A DNA stretch of 64,000 nucleotides from Perna viridis (lineage: Eukaryota), in the NCBI GenBank assembly GCA_037379345.1, contig CM074524.1:33551644-33615643 (forward strand), given 5' to 3'. Position 1 is the first letter of the stretch, and the number at the start of each line of letters is the position of its first letter. The position numbers were made by a program. Below are positions 45,001-57,000 of this stretch, one piece after another.

Positions 45001-48000
45001 TCACATTTTAAACGACCACAGATAATTAAAACATTACATGGACAGAAAGGAAACTCACATTAAACAAATCCAAAAAGCAATGCATATCCTAACACAAAAA
45101 CAAACTCAAACTTGTCCACATATAGCAAAGCACATATAAAAAATGAAAAGAAAGTCAAGGCGGCATATTAACGCTATGCTACATGACATAGTTTAGAAAA
45201 CATGTTATAGCTACTAAAAGGGGGATAATTCAATTTTATTGTGTGGAATTTATTATCCATAAATAATTTTAAAAATCGATAAAACAGTGGTCCACTATGG
45301 CTACAAGAGGTGACAAGGAAGTAGTAAGTTGAGTACTGTGTTTTGATTTGAAAAAATCTTTAAAATAACATTTTCTCCGTTCAGTACCGACATTTACATG
45401 TATTTATACCTGTAGCATAACTTGGATCGAAATCGAACTTGTGTCAAAATGACTAACAGTTTCACACGAATAAATGTGAATGCTTTGATTTTTGAATGAC
45501 TCTACAATGTGTACACCAAAACCACAAGAAGGGTATTGTCTCACTAGAGGCAAGAAAATTCCTGTTTTCAGCTGAATGAGATATTATTAAGTTAATATAG
45601 CACCTACATTGTAGAAGTACGAGTACAAGAGAGAGATATCTTAGACATCTTGGGTTTCTGATATTTCCCAATCTTGCATGACAAAAGCGCATGTTTGATT
45701 CTTTTTCTCAATTCGAGTTAGTTATCTGATAAAAATGACCTGCATTTAACAGCTGATACGTCACGTCCAAGTGTAAAAGGTCACTTAGGTTTAATTAATC
45801 AGTCAATGTATGTATTCAAAATGTATTTATATTTCGATGTTTTTGACAGCCTTCGATTTCTCAGCATATAGTAACAATATGCCTTAAACTTGGAACGAAA
45901 TCCTGCAGTATAGCGTATCTTTTTCGTAGTCAGTTCCATACTGATCCAACCAGAGTTCTACTATTTACGTTCTGGGGTAAAAATTTGGCCGCGGAGTTTC
46001 CACCTTCTTTGTTGATTGATGATTATGAAGAAGTTTTCTTTGGACATCAAGCTACAGAAAAATGCCTTGAAAATGGTGGTAGCGGGATTTACATAGAGAA
46101 TGTGTTCAAAGATATTTTAACTGTAGAGGCAAGTATATAAATGCATTTGTTTGTAATTCGTTTGGAATTCGGATTGTGAGAATATATACAGGTATAGAAA
46201 TACAAAACACAATACCTTTATGACATGTAGTTTACAAGCGATATCGTTAATATATAAATCATAAGTAATACAGATCACCGAGGTACAATGTACACAAGCT
46301 GATGTACCGCATAAATCTGATTAAGTTGAATGGAACACCATATCTGATTTCTGATGTTAAATATGTTCGGTGCTTTCTGTATTATGTTCATTAGTACATT
46401 TGTTAAAATGCAGATCGGTAGTTTTAATATTATGATCAGTAGTTCTGACATTATAATTGGTACCTTTGTCTTTATGTTCAGTAGTTTCATAATCATATGT
46501 AGTGCTGTTTGAATTATGTTCGGTACTTTCGACATTAAGTTCATAAGATGAGGATCGTGAAGCACCGTCATGTTGGCGGAAATTTTGACAAATCCATCAA
46601 ATTATTATAAATATGTGCTGTGTACAAGTAATTTCGTTAAAACTGTAACTTTTATTACCATCCATAACGTGTACAAGTCAGAAAAAAAATGTACAGGTTT
46701 TCTATATGATCCATCAGAAAACAGAACTCCGTTTGGGTACTAACAAGACTGATAATCTTTTCCTGATTATTCTAAGAATTTTTACCTATGTTCATGAAAA
46801 AGTCAAGGGCAAAGAATTGCATAATTTGTGTATAACTAGTAAACAAAGAATCTTCAACGGTAGCGGTACCTTTGGAAGCTTCACTATCCATACGCCCAAC
46901 GGGTGCAGTGTAGTAGTTTTTTACCATTGCTCACTGTTTCCCCTTTTTTTAACCAGAATTATCAGAAACTCACTGCAAGTTTGCATGGTCTATATATACC
47001 AGGTTTATAAAACCCGCAAAACATCAGAAGTTCAATTCTGCCCCATTTAAATATATATGGTCTAACAATTCTCAAAGTTGTATCTAAATTGCAAGATCCA
47101 TTTTTTTTCTTTTTTGGAAAATGTTCTTTGTGCTGATGTGACCGCTGATTTACCAATTATGACAATATTATGCATATGCCTTTTAATCACCACTGGTATA
47201 GTCATGCTGTCGTGGAAGAGGGGGTTTAGCGCGTTGTAAAACCTAGATCTAACCCACCATTTAGTCTAAGGTATCTGTACCAAGTCAGGATCATTGCGGT
47301 ACCAGCTTCTTAGGTGGTGTAATATCTATTTTGCCAGATTTATTTTGGACTTGATTATGAATCGGATTAGTGTTTGGTAATTTGTTATTTCCCTTTGTTA
47401 TCTGAAGAAACAAATGAATAAAACAATAAATATGAAGCAAGAGCACTGACGCTGGAAAAATTATACTTGATGTTGGTGACAAATGTTTAAAGGGAACAAC
47501 AAATATGAAAAAGAGACCACTAGATATAGATTGGTATGATTCAGATGTAAAAGATCTCAGATAGTGCATTAGACAAAATTGGTGTCTCAATACCCATTCA
47601 GCAAGGATCTGAAAGACGGTTTCATTGTGATTTACAATATATATACATGTAAGTGGGTGTTTAGGAAACTTTCAACTTCTGTTTAATAGACTAGAGCATT
47701 TAGAACATCAGATCACTTGTTTGTTTTGAAAAGTGCAATTTACAAATATAATGGAAAGAAACAAAAACTCTACACACGTTTTGTAGACATGACTTTAAGA
47801 AAGCCTTCAACTCATTCTTACATGAAGTGACTTATACTTATGATCACTTCACCCTGGACTGTTCGTAAGCATAAAACTATTCATACGGGAATAAAGGGAA
47901 CCTCTTAAATCAAAGTTCAAACTTAAAGCTGATTTTCTCTCTTTCGACCCTGGGCCGAAATTTTCAATCCATTTGTTTAGTCATATAGTTAAATCAATTT

Positions 48001-54000: not shown

Positions 54001-57000
54001 GCCTCTATTAAAAATGACCATGTTTTGTTATATGAAACCGTCAAATGAAATTTTGTCTAATCTTAAATAGTAGGTCCACAATGGAAATATTTTATAAATA
54101 TTGTGTGCACGTTTCATAAAACATGTAAGAGGTTGATACCAAAATGTCATTAGTCCCTACGCTTGGATGGTTCACCATGCAGACGAAACCAAACGCATCA
54201 ATTTCATAATTTTCATGATTACATGATTTTCAGGAACCTTTATACCTCCAATTTCCGAATCAATTTGTCGCCAAAGAATATTTTCGGATTCTTTTCCAGT
54301 ATAAGCCAATATTTGTACAACAAAGGCGCAAAAACCAAGATTTTTGTGATTCAATTGTTCGAGCGTCTAAGTCTTTCTTGGACATCAGGTGTAAAGAAAT
54401 TGAATGTACATAGAAATCACCATGTAGCCGAACGTCTCAGCTTCCTTATGGTACATGAAAATCCCCCAACTCCCACCCCCACTCCCAAAAAATAAGCATT
54501 ATACATTTATATAAAGCGTAAGAAATTAAAATCTCAAATTTTACAATTTTAGTATTTTTATTAATTTGTTTTTATTTTTGTTTTTGTTTTTTGTTTTTTT
54601 TTTTTAAACTTATAAAAATAATTTCTCAGGGTTTTTTTGTCGGGGGATGTGACTGGGGGCTTTTGTCTGGGGACTTTTGTCTTGATACTTCTCCAGACCT
54701 AGAAATCTGGTATCAGTATCAAATAAAACCTTTTACATGATACAGTACATTAATATCATAGTGTCTTTGCTTTCAAATGAAAAACACATCTTTAAGTATA
54801 TGTTTTATTATGATTATTTTTTTTATTTAACAGATGAACTAGATAGCTACAATACATACGAAAAACGAAGTTCAATGAATTATAAACAGGAAACACAGTT
54901 TCTCAGTGGTGGAAGTACGAAGGAGTTAATCATGCGGGAGTTTGATAATTTCTTCGCCGATTTATTCGGATCATGGGTTTGGAATATTGGGCGGAATAAA
55001 GATATTTGGATAGGTATTGAAGATAAGATCAATTTCCTACTTGAAAATGGCTGTGCCAATCATAAAAATATACTTTTTACAGATCAATTTATTTTGTTAG
55101 ATGAGGTTTGCAAAAAACACACGAACATGCCTTTAAAACACATCATATCCATCTCAGATTATGCTGGTCACATTACACTTAATGGATTTCGCTTGAGAAT
55201 TGACACTTCTCTCATACTATCTATTTTTGATAAAGGGATAAGGAAAGTCATGCGAAACATCAATTATGTGATGTCGTTAGAGGAAAAGAATATAAAATTT
55301 ATTCTACTTTCTGGAAACGTCGCTAATTTTCCATTAGTACGCGATGCTATTGTACAGATGTTCCCACAGTCACACGTATTAGGTGGAAAAGGTAGCAGAT
55401 CCTCGTATGAAGCCCTTAAAGGCGGAACTCAGTTTGGACATAAACCTGTTGTGTTTTCGACAATGTTTTCATGTGCACAAACATTTGTTCCACAATGACT
55501 TGTTGAACGTTTTGAAATAATCAAAAATGCATAGTGAAAATTAGTTCAATTAGCATTTCAATTAGTAACCAATATCAATAAAAGAAATATATAAAAATCA
55601 CCCCTCTTTGGTTGACTAAATGTAAGCAAATCGGCAAAAATTAAAGAAGCGTAAAAATTGATAATAAAGACACATCGAAATCAAGGTTAATGGCCTTAAC
55701 GCGAAAGGAAAAACTGACACCTATACGTTCTACATACACACAGTATAGCGAACAAAGTATGATAAAAATTACGTAGTTAAGATACAAAAATTGCCGTTGG
55801 TTCTTAAAAAAAGAAACAACGCGCCCAAAAGACAAAAAGACAATTCATTTTTTTATTACGAATCAACAGCATTTCATTGTTTCTGTTATTTTAAACTATA
55901 AATTTTGACGTGACCGAATAAATCTGTTGTCAAATTCGATAAGGCCTTTTGAGTAACTGAAGTAGGTTTAATTCACTACAGGTATATATTGACTATTTTC
56001 AACATTATTGCATTAATTCAGCAAAACGTTTCGAGTGTGACCAAGTAATCAAACAGTTTCGATCCGAATTATAATGTCGATATACAAAGTTCTGATGACA
56101 TGAACTGACAGTGCAGCCAAAACGTCAATCCGAGTATTTTTTCGAGTTTCCGATCAACATTTTAATCATGATAAAAGACAAAGAGGTTTGTCTACGAGAT
56201 TTTCATTCTATCAATTTTAGTTGTTTATCCTTTATGAGAAAAGCAATCAAGGTATTTTAAGGTGTCCTGATCTGGGAAAATATCACAATGTTGTTTCTAA
56301 GAGAACTACTATTTACATTATATAACGAAGCAGTATTCAGACAGTCATGATATGAGAAATATGTTTTCGTGTGTTGATTGTGTGCAGTTATTAATAAGTA
56401 AAAAATATTAAGCGTAAACTTTGCAATGTTTAATCTCCTATGAACGTACTTGTTTTAGTTATATTATATTCGGTTCATCTAATCAATATAATATATAGTA
56501 CATTAACAAAGTTTCTATCAAAAAAACTTGAATCAACATAAACGGGATGCAGCTGATCGGAAAGAGTAGATATTTTTATTTAATTCTTTGTTCTTTGTGT
56601 TATTTGTGGAAACTTTCGATGGGTCTTTATGTATCACAATGATAATGAAATCAAAATAAAGCGAGATTTACTTCGACACCTACAAGATATACTTATTAAT
56701 AAATGATGTGCTTTACAACATGCTGTCTTAGATTACAAGATCGTGTCCCTAAATAGGCCAAGGTCATCCTTCAACATATAAGCACAAGATGAATGCTTAC
56801 AAAACTTTTAGAAAAAAAAACGTTGATGCTTTTAGAAGAAGACTTTCAATGAAAGTTCAAGGAAGAAATAACTATTAGATATTTTACATTAAATATATAT
56901 ACAAATTTAATCAAAGTTCCACATTGTTACTCCCTCAATCATGAATTGATATCAGGAGCTAGAACTCGTAATTACTTAGTTATGTTCACATTAAAAAAGA

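What the first reader, a model, noticed from the sequence alone, without database searches (positions are those of the whole stretch)
45297..55498. Intact but catalytically degenerate, NBD-only HSPA12 (candidate pseudo-ATPase)
Seen: five exons splice into an uninterrupted 444-aa frame across 10 kb, yet the actin/Hsp70 nucleotide motifs are replaced: LKLGTKSCS for IDFGTTYSG, TYPEAT for LEPEAA, VIGFED for VVDxGGGT, LLSGNVAN for LxVGGFxE. The protein stops just after the NBD (GGTQFGHKP), so there is no substrate-binding domain. Known: HSPA12 is expanded in bivalves. Inference: open frames with lost motifs suggest retention for a non-chaperone role such as scaffold or decoy.
Basis: partly seen in the sequence, partly recalled or inferred. 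Interest (0 to 1): 0.65.

Follow-up and report, generated by a model that had tools for sequence, protein, structure and literature searches.

The report
Motif-less, tail-less HSPA12-like gene
This is an intact five-exon gene for a shortened relative of the HSPA12 heat-shock proteins that has lost the residues needed to burn ATP, and it belongs to a small conserved group of such proteins rather than being a one-off wreck.

Summary
Five exons on the + strand (45297-45323, 45850-46128, 49645-49863, 52638-52782, 54834-55498) have usable splice sites and add up to 444 codons. One donor is a non-canonical GC; the alternative GT donor gives 442 codons. A profile of 9 canonical HSPA12-like proteins ranks exons 5, 3 and 2 first among 2055 window ORFs, in the same order as in the protein. 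All four nucleotide motifs are replaced, including the key Asp, Glu and Gly residues.

New here: the last exon has about 22 relatives (36-41% identical). They share the replaced motifs, and 14 of the 16 that reach the end stop at the same position as this gene. So motif loss and the missing C-terminal domain are old, conserved traits of a subfamily, not decay of this copy.

This copy is the fastest-evolving member: 28 unique changes against 11 in P0002. Recent inactivation cannot be excluded, but neutral drift above about 0.05-0.1 substitutions per site is unlikely, because all frames are still open.

Most likely it is a non-catalytic Hsp70-fold protein. A partner or decoy role is inference only. 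The joined protein was never built, searched or folded. I found no published description. Verdict: new variant of a known kind, moderate interest.

The parts
45297..45323 (+). Exon 1 (inferred): ATG plus 8 codons (MATRGDKEV), followed by donor GTAAGT at 45324-45329
   Evidence: Sequence read. It is the only 1 of 67 ATG...GT phase-0 candidates in the 2.45 kb upstream of exon 2 with a GTRAG donor. No homology support.
45850..46128 (+). Exon 2, 93 aa. It carries the phosphate-1 region, with LKLGTKSCS in place of the canonical IDFGTTYSG. It ends at a GC donor (gag|GCAAGT); an alternative GT donor lies at 46123
   Evidence: Profile hit E 8.2e-4 to canonical positions 13-79. tblastn with P0060 gave E 0.001.
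49645..49863 (+). Exon 3, 73 aa. MLFVISIPSVRAETVRTFLNEA corresponds to the canonical irWVLTVPAIWtdaAKQFMREA
   Evidence: Profile hit E 6.6e-6 to positions 105-176.
52638..52782 (+). Exon 4, 48 aa plus 1 base. TYPEAT replaces LEPEAA (catalytic Glu becomes Tyr). VMVIGFE begins the degenerate phosphate-2 hairpin. Donor aag|GTACAT, phase 1
   Evidence: Profile alignment to positions 185-229 scores only E = 4 but falls in protein order. The E4/E5 junction 'GFE-D-ELDS' matches the uninterrupted 'VVFEDELDS' of relative P0002.
54834..55498 (+). Exon 5, 2 bases plus 220 aa plus TGA. It encodes lobe II of the nucleotide-binding domain. (F)EDELDSYNTYEK replaces DxGGGTVDITVHE, and LLSGNVAN replaces LLVGGFxE. 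It also carries KGGTQFGHKP and a short hydrophobic tail ending at a conserved stop
   Evidence: Representative search: 87 hits, best 1.2e-42. Subfamily alignment. Profile hit E 4.8e-22. Fold model pLDDT 80.4, whose listed matches are all Hsp70-family nucleotide-binding domains.
55577..55582 (+). AATAAA, a possible polyadenylation signal 79 nt after the stop (weak evidence)
   Evidence: Such a hexamer is expected about once per 750 nt at this composition, so it is only compatible, not diagnostic.
50312..51006 (.). Interspersed repeat plus an 86-bp tandem duplication inside intron 3. Repeat insertions account for part of the gene's 10-kb span
   Evidence: blastn of the gene region against the window: copies at 26194-26712 (89% identity) and 58550-59078 (86% identity).

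Best explanation
The locus encodes an intact, divergent member of a conserved and so far undescribed subfamily of HSPA12 (Hsp70-12)-derived proteins.

Shown:
- The protein consists of the Hsp70-type nucleotide-binding domain only.
- The phosphate-1 Asp is Lys, and the connect-1 Glu is Tyr.
- The Gly-rich phosphate-2 loop with its Asp and Thr (D-x-GGG-T) is G-F-EDE-L.
- The adenosine-motif GG is GN.
- The roughly 140-aa C-terminal domain is replaced by a 16-residue hydrophobic tail and a stop.

Inferred:
- It keeps the actin/Hsp70 fold but cannot hydrolyse ATP, and probably does not bind it in the usual way, because three acidic residues sit where the phosphate-gripping glycines should be.
- It therefore acts through protein-protein contacts. 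The most plausible form is a non-catalytic partner or competitor of canonical HSPA12/Hsp70 nucleotide-binding domains or of their co-factors.
For: Gene model:
- Open frames, splice sites and protein-order homology of E2, E3 and E5 to canonical HSPA12-like proteins.

Family link:
- 12 of 15 E5 hits that I scanned match Pfam HSP70 at E<=0.01, 11 of them above the gathering score.
- Canonical relative P0013 aligns to the DnaK nucleotide-binding domain (E 6e-6), motif by motif.

Subfamily:
- 22 related terminal-exon proteins were found (7; 15 new among the 19 hits).
- They share (F)EDELDS(F/Y)N.YEK, FLSG.S.., I.(A/V/S)GN(I/V/M)A and the tail ..SSIF.GAQ..V...
- 16 of them reach the C-terminus, and 14 of those stop at exactly the window's position.
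- The window and the subfamily form one clade against 12 canonical sequences, SH-aLRT 100.

Fold:
- The E5 model has pLDDT 80.4 and pTM 0.76. All listed PDB matches are Hsp70, Hsp110, DnaK, BiP or Ssz1 nucleotide-binding domains.

Selection on this copy:
- Under simulated neutral substitution, all five frames stay open in 4.9% of runs at 0.05 substitutions per site, 0.3% at 0.1 and 0.005% at 0.22.
- The 28 window-unique replacements are more conservative (mean BLOSUM62 +0.29) than simulated two-step neutral changes (4 of 5000 simulations reach that value).
- Against one-step changes the difference is only marginal (386 of 5000).
Against: - No exon hits any Pfam family at E<=1 except one chance-level match. 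The Hsp70 link is therefore indirect, through canonical HSPA12-like relatives.
- Foldseek E-values are weak: best 1e-2, and 0 of at least 500 matches at E<=0.001.
- This copy evolves faster than its relatives. Its end branch is 0.90 against 0.40 for P0002. It has 28 unique changes against 11 over 168 columns, binomial p = 0.009.
- It has altered boxes that the subfamily keeps, such as KGAVLFGH to KGGTQFGH.
- One donor is non-canonical (GC), and E1 is unsupported by homology.
- Some relatives look broken or cut: P0004, P0015, P0026, P0099 and P0100. P0102 was not examined. This suggests birth-and-death turnover in the group.
- All relatives are single-exon fragments from unannotated sources. 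Whether the N-terminal motif changes (K for D, Y for E) are shared by the subfamily is therefore unknown.
- No expression, nucleotide-binding or partner data exist.
- No dN/dS could be computed, because only protein sequences of relatives were available.
Confidence: 0.55

Rival explanations
1. A young unprocessed pseudogene. This copy of the degenerate subfamily lost its function recently. It is drifting but has not yet picked up a stop or frameshift.
For: - It has the longest branch in the subfamily (0.90 against 0.40-0.6).
- It has 28 unique changes against 11 in P0002.
- It shows changes in boxes that are otherwise conserved.
- It uses a GC donor, and its first exon is unsupported.
- Its introns are invaded by repeats.
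- Neutral drift of up to about 0.02-0.05 substitutions per site would leave all frames open in 29% and 5% of simulations respectively.
- No annotated full-length protein for it or for any relative appeared in the searches.
Against: - All five frames, eight splice dinucleotides (one of them GC), the ATG and the conserved stop position are intact.
- If the excess branch length were neutral (about 0.2 substitutions per site), the frames would survive in about 5 of 100,000 runs.
- The unique replacements lean conservative.
Confidence: 0.3
2. It is still a working nucleotide-binding or hydrolysing protein that uses a non-canonical pocket. In that case 'degenerate' motifs would not mean a dead enzyme.
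For: - The lobe II fold is predicted with good confidence.
- The replaced motifs are themselves conserved in the subfamily, so the pocket region is under constraint.
- Acidic residues could bind a metal.
Against: - The Asp, Glu, Asp and Thr positions that align with DnaK's catalytic set through P0013 are Lys, Tyr, Gly and Leu.
- The phosphate-gripping GGG is EDE, and the adenosine GG is GN.
- A paper on non-canonical Hsp70s treats these motifs as the family signature (PMC12692333, passages read).
Confidence: 0.1
3. Gene-model artefact. The exons are part of a larger gene whose C-terminal domain or true 5' end lies elsewhere, or the five pieces are not spliced together as proposed.
For: - There is no transcript evidence.
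- E1 and the E2 donor are uncertain.
- E4 alone is not significant (E = 4).
Against: - 14 of the 16 relatives that reach the end share the stop position.
- No C-terminal-domain match occurs anywhere in the 64 kb (best E 0.9).
- The minus strand carries transporter-like exons from 57426 onward.
- E2 to E5 cover canonical profile positions 13 to 441 without a gap that would call for another exon.
- P0002 reads straight through the E4/E5 junction.
Confidence: 0.05

Closest known systems
Canonical HSPA12A/B (Hsp70-12), massively expanded in bivalves
   Same: - Protein-order homology across the whole nucleotide-binding domain.
- HSPA12-type boxes are recognisable: ..TVPAIW..AKQFMREA (here ISIPSVRAETVRTFLNEA) and KGAVLFGH.P (here KGGTQFGHKP).
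- The genome is repeat-rich, and the nearest unnamed Atlas look-alike clusters are recorded as Mollusca (a lead only).
- The bivalve expansion is documented (PMC13580251, passage; PMC11268181, passages).
   Different: - All signature motifs are lost.
- The roughly 140-aa C-terminal domain is absent.
- No Pfam HSP70 hit.
- It forms a separate clade with its subfamily, SH-aLRT 100. The root is unknown, so sister versus nested position is open.
HSPA13 / STCH (Hsp70-13), the NBD-only Hsp70
   Same: It consists essentially of the nucleotide-binding domain without a peptide-binding domain.
   Different: - HSPA13 is reported to keep all signature motifs and an ATPase activity, and to be close to canonical Hsp70 (PMC12692333, passages).
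- The protein here has none of the motifs and derives from the HSPA12 branch.
Ssz1 / HSPA14 and Hsp110: Hsp70 relatives repurposed as partners of other Hsp70s
   Same: - They are Hsp70-fold proteins whose role rests on contacts between nucleotide-binding domains and on co-factors rather than on a full chaperone cycle (PMC13580251, passage).
- Ssz1-containing entries are among the top fold matches (7x3k_B at rank 1, 4gni_B at rank 5).
- That Ssz1 needs no ATP hydrolysis is my recollection, not from a call.
   Different: - Those proteins still bind nucleotide and keep a C-terminal domain.
- There is no specific sequence relationship beyond the shared fold.
- The functional analogy is inference only.

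Membership tests
Hsp70 family (signature motifs as listed in PMC12692333) | Motif 1, DxGTT (phosphate 1) | tested here: not met
   The window has KLGTK where canonical relatives have DFGTT.
Hsp70 family (signature motifs) | Motif 2, EPxAA (connect 1, catalytic Glu) | tested here: not met
   The window has YPEAT. The E of 'EP' aligns to Y. The same column is NEPTAA in DnaK, via P0013.
Hsp70 family (signature motifs) | Motif 3, GGxT within D-x-GGGT-x-D (phosphate 2) | tested here: not met
   GFEDELDS replaces DCGGGTVD. The register is anchored on SYNTYE aligned to DITVHE. The replacement is shared by the subfamily.
Hsp70 family (signature motifs) | Motif 5, LxGG (adenosine motif) | tested here: not met
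   LLSGNVAN replaces LLVGGFSE. The subfamily has I(L/C/F)(A/V)GNIA.
Hsp70 family | Match to Pfam HSP70 (PF00012) above the gathering score | tested here: not met
   0 of 4 exon peptides match. The joined protein was not scanned, so a whole-length match is untested. 11 of 15 scanned E5 hits do pass.
Hsp70 / actin-like ATPase fold | Lobe II (IIA plus IIB) fold of the nucleotide-binding domain | tested here: inconclusive
   The E5 model has pLDDT 80.4. All listed PDB matches are Hsp70-family nucleotide-binding domains with probability up to 0.99, but the best E is 1e-2 and TM about 0.45. Lobe I was not modelled because the exons were not joined.
HSPA12 (Hsp70-12) | Full-length homology, in protein order, to HSPA12-type nucleotide-binding domains | tested here: met
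   Profile of 9 canonical proteins: E2 matches positions 13-79, E3 105-176, E4 185-229 (weak) and E5 263-441. The label 'HSPA12' for these unnamed proteins rests on their match to the published oyster motif table (PMC11268181, Table 3).
HSPA12 (Hsp70-12) | C-terminal domain of about 140 aa after KGAVLFGH.P..I..R....TYG | tested here: not met
   The frame stops 16 aa after GHKP. There is no match to profile positions 442-582 in the window (best E 0.9).
Truncated degenerate subfamily (defined here) | Terminal exon with EDELDS.N.YEK, a ..GN.A adenosine box, a tail ..S.(I/M)F..AQ..V.. and a stop two residues later, plus the same acceptor position | tested here: met
   Alignment A3 and the clade with SH-aLRT 100. 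Identity is only 33-39%, and the KGAVLFGH box is altered.
Processed (retro-copied) pseudogene | No introns, poly-A tract, disabled frame | tested here: not met
   There are four introns of 526 to 3516 bp and the frames are open.

The most novel reading that the evidence does not exclude
Molluscs carry a conserved lineage of HSPA12-derived pseudo-ATPases. These would be Hsp70 nucleotide-binding domains with an acidic 'EDE' loop in place of the phosphate-binding glycines and with no client-binding domain. They would regulate the hugely expanded HSPA12 chaperone set by pairing with, or competing for the partners of, active family members, much as Hsp110 and Ssz1 were repurposed from Hsp70. The window's gene would be a fast-evolving, possibly neofunctionalised, member of that lineage.
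Probability: 0.15. Interest if true: 0.7.

Novelty: new variant of a known kind. Interest (0 to 1): 0.5.

Why it matters
The function of HSPA12 is described as unknown, and the reason for its expansion to tens of copies per bivalve genome is unexplained (PMC13580251, passage read). A conserved branch that has dropped both ATP chemistry and the C-terminal domain would show that part of this expansion is not 'more chaperone'. It would be a different, non-catalytic use of the Hsp70 fold.

It would also give a concrete handle for experiments: a naturally dead nucleotide-binding domain with which to look for HSPA12 partners. For genome annotation it matters too. Such genes escape Pfam-based HSP70 censuses, and no full-length model for them turned up in the protein sets I searched.

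Tried and rejected
- Pfam and NCBIfam scans of the four larger exon peptides gave nothing usable. The only notable hit was a 0.034 match of E5 to the Hsp70-like 'molecular chaperone' model PRK11678.
- PDB sequence search with E5: one chance hit, E = 1.
- Word-index protein search with E5 alone found nothing, at both 'longer' and 'near' lengths. Relatives at about 40% identity were only reached by the exhaustive search and then by a profile.
- Cluster look-up for sources and names was not available. The origin and the cluster neighbours of the relatives therefore stay unknown, and I did not pursue them.
- tblastn of all 87 first hits against the window at E<=0.01 found only E5. The N-terminal exons appeared only with relaxed settings or with the profile.
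- Search for C-terminal-domain exons downstream or in introns: none.
- Search for a paralogue inside the window: only a 40-aa, 30% identical stretch at 62481-62600 that crosses a stop. I treat it as chance or a decayed fragment.
- A claim about a K71-equivalent lysine ('VFKD' against 'RFKM') was dropped. The DnaK alignment does not place the catalytic lysine there reliably.
- ESM Atlas look-alikes (Hsp70-like fragments, unnamed mollusc clusters) are leads only.
- Literature: searches for HSPA12 with bivalve and expansion, with pseudogene, and with nucleotide-binding domain and mollusc, and for Hsp70 with pseudo-ATPase turned up no description of a motif-less, truncated HSPA12 group. I read only listings and the passages named. 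Supplementary tables, which might list such short members, were closed.
- No complex prediction was run, because no binding claim is firm enough and the full domain could not be submitted.

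
Full report
**What is there**

On the + strand between 45297 and 55498 there are five open pieces with splice signals.

| Exon | Coordinates | Content | Following donor |
|---|---|---|---|
| E1 | 45297-45323 | 9 codons | GTAAGT |
| E2 | 45850-46128 | 93 codons | GCAAGT (non-canonical GC) |
| E3 | 49645-49863 | 73 codons | GTATGT |
| E4 | 52638-52782 | 48 codons plus one base | GTACAT |
| E5 | 54834-55498 | two bases, 220 codons, TGA | (stop) |

All four acceptors are AG preceded by pyrimidine-rich tracts. With the weaker GT donor at 46123 it gives 442. 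The spacing between the FK box of E2 and the KG of E3 equals that of canonical relative P0013 only with the GC donor; I counted this by eye on the sequences.

E1 has no homology support. It is the only 1 of 67 ATG...GT phase-0 candidates upstream of E2 with a GTRAG donor. The window has no N. I do not take it for human sequence.

The joined protein was never assembled, searched or folded. Whole-length family scans and the geometry of the complete nucleotide pocket therefore remain unchecked.

**Is it HSPA12-derived?**

- No exon matches Pfam or NCBIfam usefully.
- An exhaustive HMMER search with E5 found 87 proteins at E<=0.001.
- I scanned 15 of those 87 against Pfam. 12 match HSP70 at E<=0.01, 11 of them above the gathering score.
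- Full-length hits such as P0013 and P0040 carry AIDFGTT(F/Y)S, WV(I/L)TVPAIW..AKQFMRE, LE(P/A)EAA, GGGTVDITVHE, (L/M)VGG..E and KGAV(L/I).GH. These are the motifs tabulated for oyster HSP70/HSPA12 genes (PMC11268181, Table 3, passage read).
- P0013 aligns with the DnaK nucleotide-binding domain motif by motif.
- A profile of 9 such proteins, run over all 2055 six-frame ORFs of at least 20 aa in the window, ranks E5 (4.8e-22), E3 (6.6e-6) and E2 (8.2e-4) first. They cover profile positions 263-441, 105-176 and 13-79.
- E4 aligns to positions 185-229 at a non-significant E = 4. Nothing credible matches positions 442-582, the C-terminal domain.

The gene is therefore a complete copy of the nucleotide-binding domain, with every segment in its proper order, and nothing more.

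**Motif status**

| Motif | Canonical | Window | Change |
|---|---|---|---|
| Phosphate 1 | DFGTT | KLGTK | Asp to Lys |
| Phosphate 2 | D-C-GGG-T-V-D | G-F-EDE-L-D-S | Asp, the three Gly and Thr all lost |
| Adenosine | LLVGGFSE | LLSGNVAN | GG to GN |

These are the signatures a recent paper uses to define Hsp70 family members (PMC12692333, passages read).

**The new element: a subfamily**

- The two best hits (P0001 and P0002; E about 1e-42, 41% identity) are about as long as E5 and end where it ends.
- A profile search added 15 more proteins, all unnamed.
- In the alignment these proteins share (F)EDELDS(F/Y)N.YEK, FLSG.S.., I.(A/V)GNIA and KGAVLFGH.P.
- They also share a tail, IVVSSIF.GAQ..V.., followed by a stop.
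- Of 22 subfamily sequences seen, 16 reach the C-terminus. 14 of those stop at exactly the window's position; P0093 runs 10 aa further and P0096 is shifted.
- The 234-aa forms begin with read-through of an intron and then the same exon start (..LL(T/S)|EELDS..), so the intron position is shared too.
- P0002 reads 'VVFEDELDS' without interruption, which supports the E4/E5 junction.
- Some members look cut or frame-shifted: P0004, P0015, P0026, P0099 and P0100. I did not examine P0102.
- There is an ascertainment bias: only open frames get predicted as proteins.

In a tree of 29 rows, the window plus 16 subfamily rows form one side of a branch against 12 canonical rows, with SH-aLRT 100. The root is unknown.

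Loss of the P2 and adenosine motifs and of the C-terminal domain is therefore old and conserved. It is not decay peculiar to this locus.

**Fold**

E5 was modelled with the subfamily alignment. The model has pLDDT 80.4 and pTM 0.76, and the last 10 residues are disordered. All listed PDB matches are Hsp70, Hsp110, DnaK, BiP or Ssz1 nucleotide-binding domains. The scores are weak: best E 1e-2, none at E<=0.001, TM about 0.45.

**State of this copy**

It is the outlier of the group. It is 33-39% identical to all the others, which are far closer to one another (62% mean column identity across the whole alignment).

Signs of fast evolution:
- Its end branch is 0.90, against 0.40 for P0002.
- Over 168 comparable columns it has 28 unique changes against 11 in P0002 (binomial p = 0.009). 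The two multi-sequence clades, compared as consensus sequences, show 7 and 2. Using a consensus lowers their counts, so only the window-P0002 comparison is fair.
- It has changed KGAVLFGH to KGGTQFGH.

Signs of continuing constraint:
- Everything needed for expression is intact.
- Under simulated neutral substitution without indels, all five frames stay open in 29%, 4.9%, 0.3% and 0.005% of runs at 0.02, 0.05, 0.1 and 0.22 substitutions per site.
- The unique replacements are on average conservative: mean BLOSUM62 +0.29. One-step neutral changes give -0.17, and 386 of 5000 simulations reach the observed value. Two-step changes give -0.70, and 4 of 5000 reach it.

Long neutral decay is thus unlikely. 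Recent loss of constraint is not excluded.

**Mechanism**

Shown: a nucleotide-binding-domain-only protein of HSPA12 descent that lacks the catalytic and phosphate-binding residues.

Inferred: it folds like an Hsp70 nucleotide-binding domain, does not hydrolyse ATP, and works by binding other proteins. The precedent is Hsp70 relatives turned into partners of Hsp70s, namely Hsp110 and Ssz1/HSPA14 (PMC13580251, passage read). No partner was tested.

**Context and literature**

- The gene lies between transporter-like (MFS) exons on the minus strand, and its introns hold interspersed repeats.
- The bivalve HSPA12 expansion and the unknown function of HSPA12 are documented.
- Four searches found no description of a motif-less truncated HSPA12 group. 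Supplementary tables were closed.

**Verdict**

This is a new variant of a known kind, of moderate interest.

Noticed in passing
window 28747-34215 (+): Ty3/gypsy-type LTR retroelement coding region. It has a gag-like ORF (PNMA and zinc knuckle), reverse transcriptase, RNase H and integrase domains, spread over several overlapping frames. The GC content here (0.42-0.45) is higher than in the surroundings.
   Followed up: partly
window 9200-11155 (-) and 57426-63343 (-): Exons of two MFS / sugar-transporter-type (SLC22-like, my reading) genes flank the HSPA12-like gene on the opposite strand. 9200-9946 hits Sugar_tr and MFS_1 at about 3e-16, and 63098-63343 hits Sugar_tr weakly.
   Followed up: partly
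window 50312-51006; copies at 26194-26712 and 58550-59078: A roughly 520-bp interspersed repeat sits in intron 3, with two inverted copies elsewhere in the window (86-89% identity). An 86-bp tandem duplication (98% identity) lies next to it. Intron 2 (47122-47393) shares a 74% identical repeat with 17809-18080.
   Followed up: partly
window 62481-62600 (+): A 40-aa stretch is 30% identical to the start of exon 2 (tblastn E 0.003) but crosses a stop codon at 62544-62546. It is either chance or the remnant of a second, decayed HSPA12-like first exon inside the neighbouring gene's intron.
   Followed up: partly
window 18687-19465 (+): An ORF pair with a helix-turn-helix-like part and an integrase-core 'rva_4' domain (E 1e-31). 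It is probably part of another mobile element.
   Followed up: no
window 8632-9327 (-) and 42447-43359 (-): Two related ORF fragments share the string ..YKMLEFLIDNIFVQ.GGRVFQQTVGIPM.TNCAPLLADLFL.. and have no Pfam match. They look like copies of one repeated, possibly mobile-element-derived, coding sequence.
   Followed up: no
relatives P0004, P0015, P0026, P0099, P0100: Several subfamily relatives break off or change frame partway through the terminal exon. This suggests birth-and-death turnover (or assembly errors) within the degenerate HSPA12-like group.
   Followed up: no
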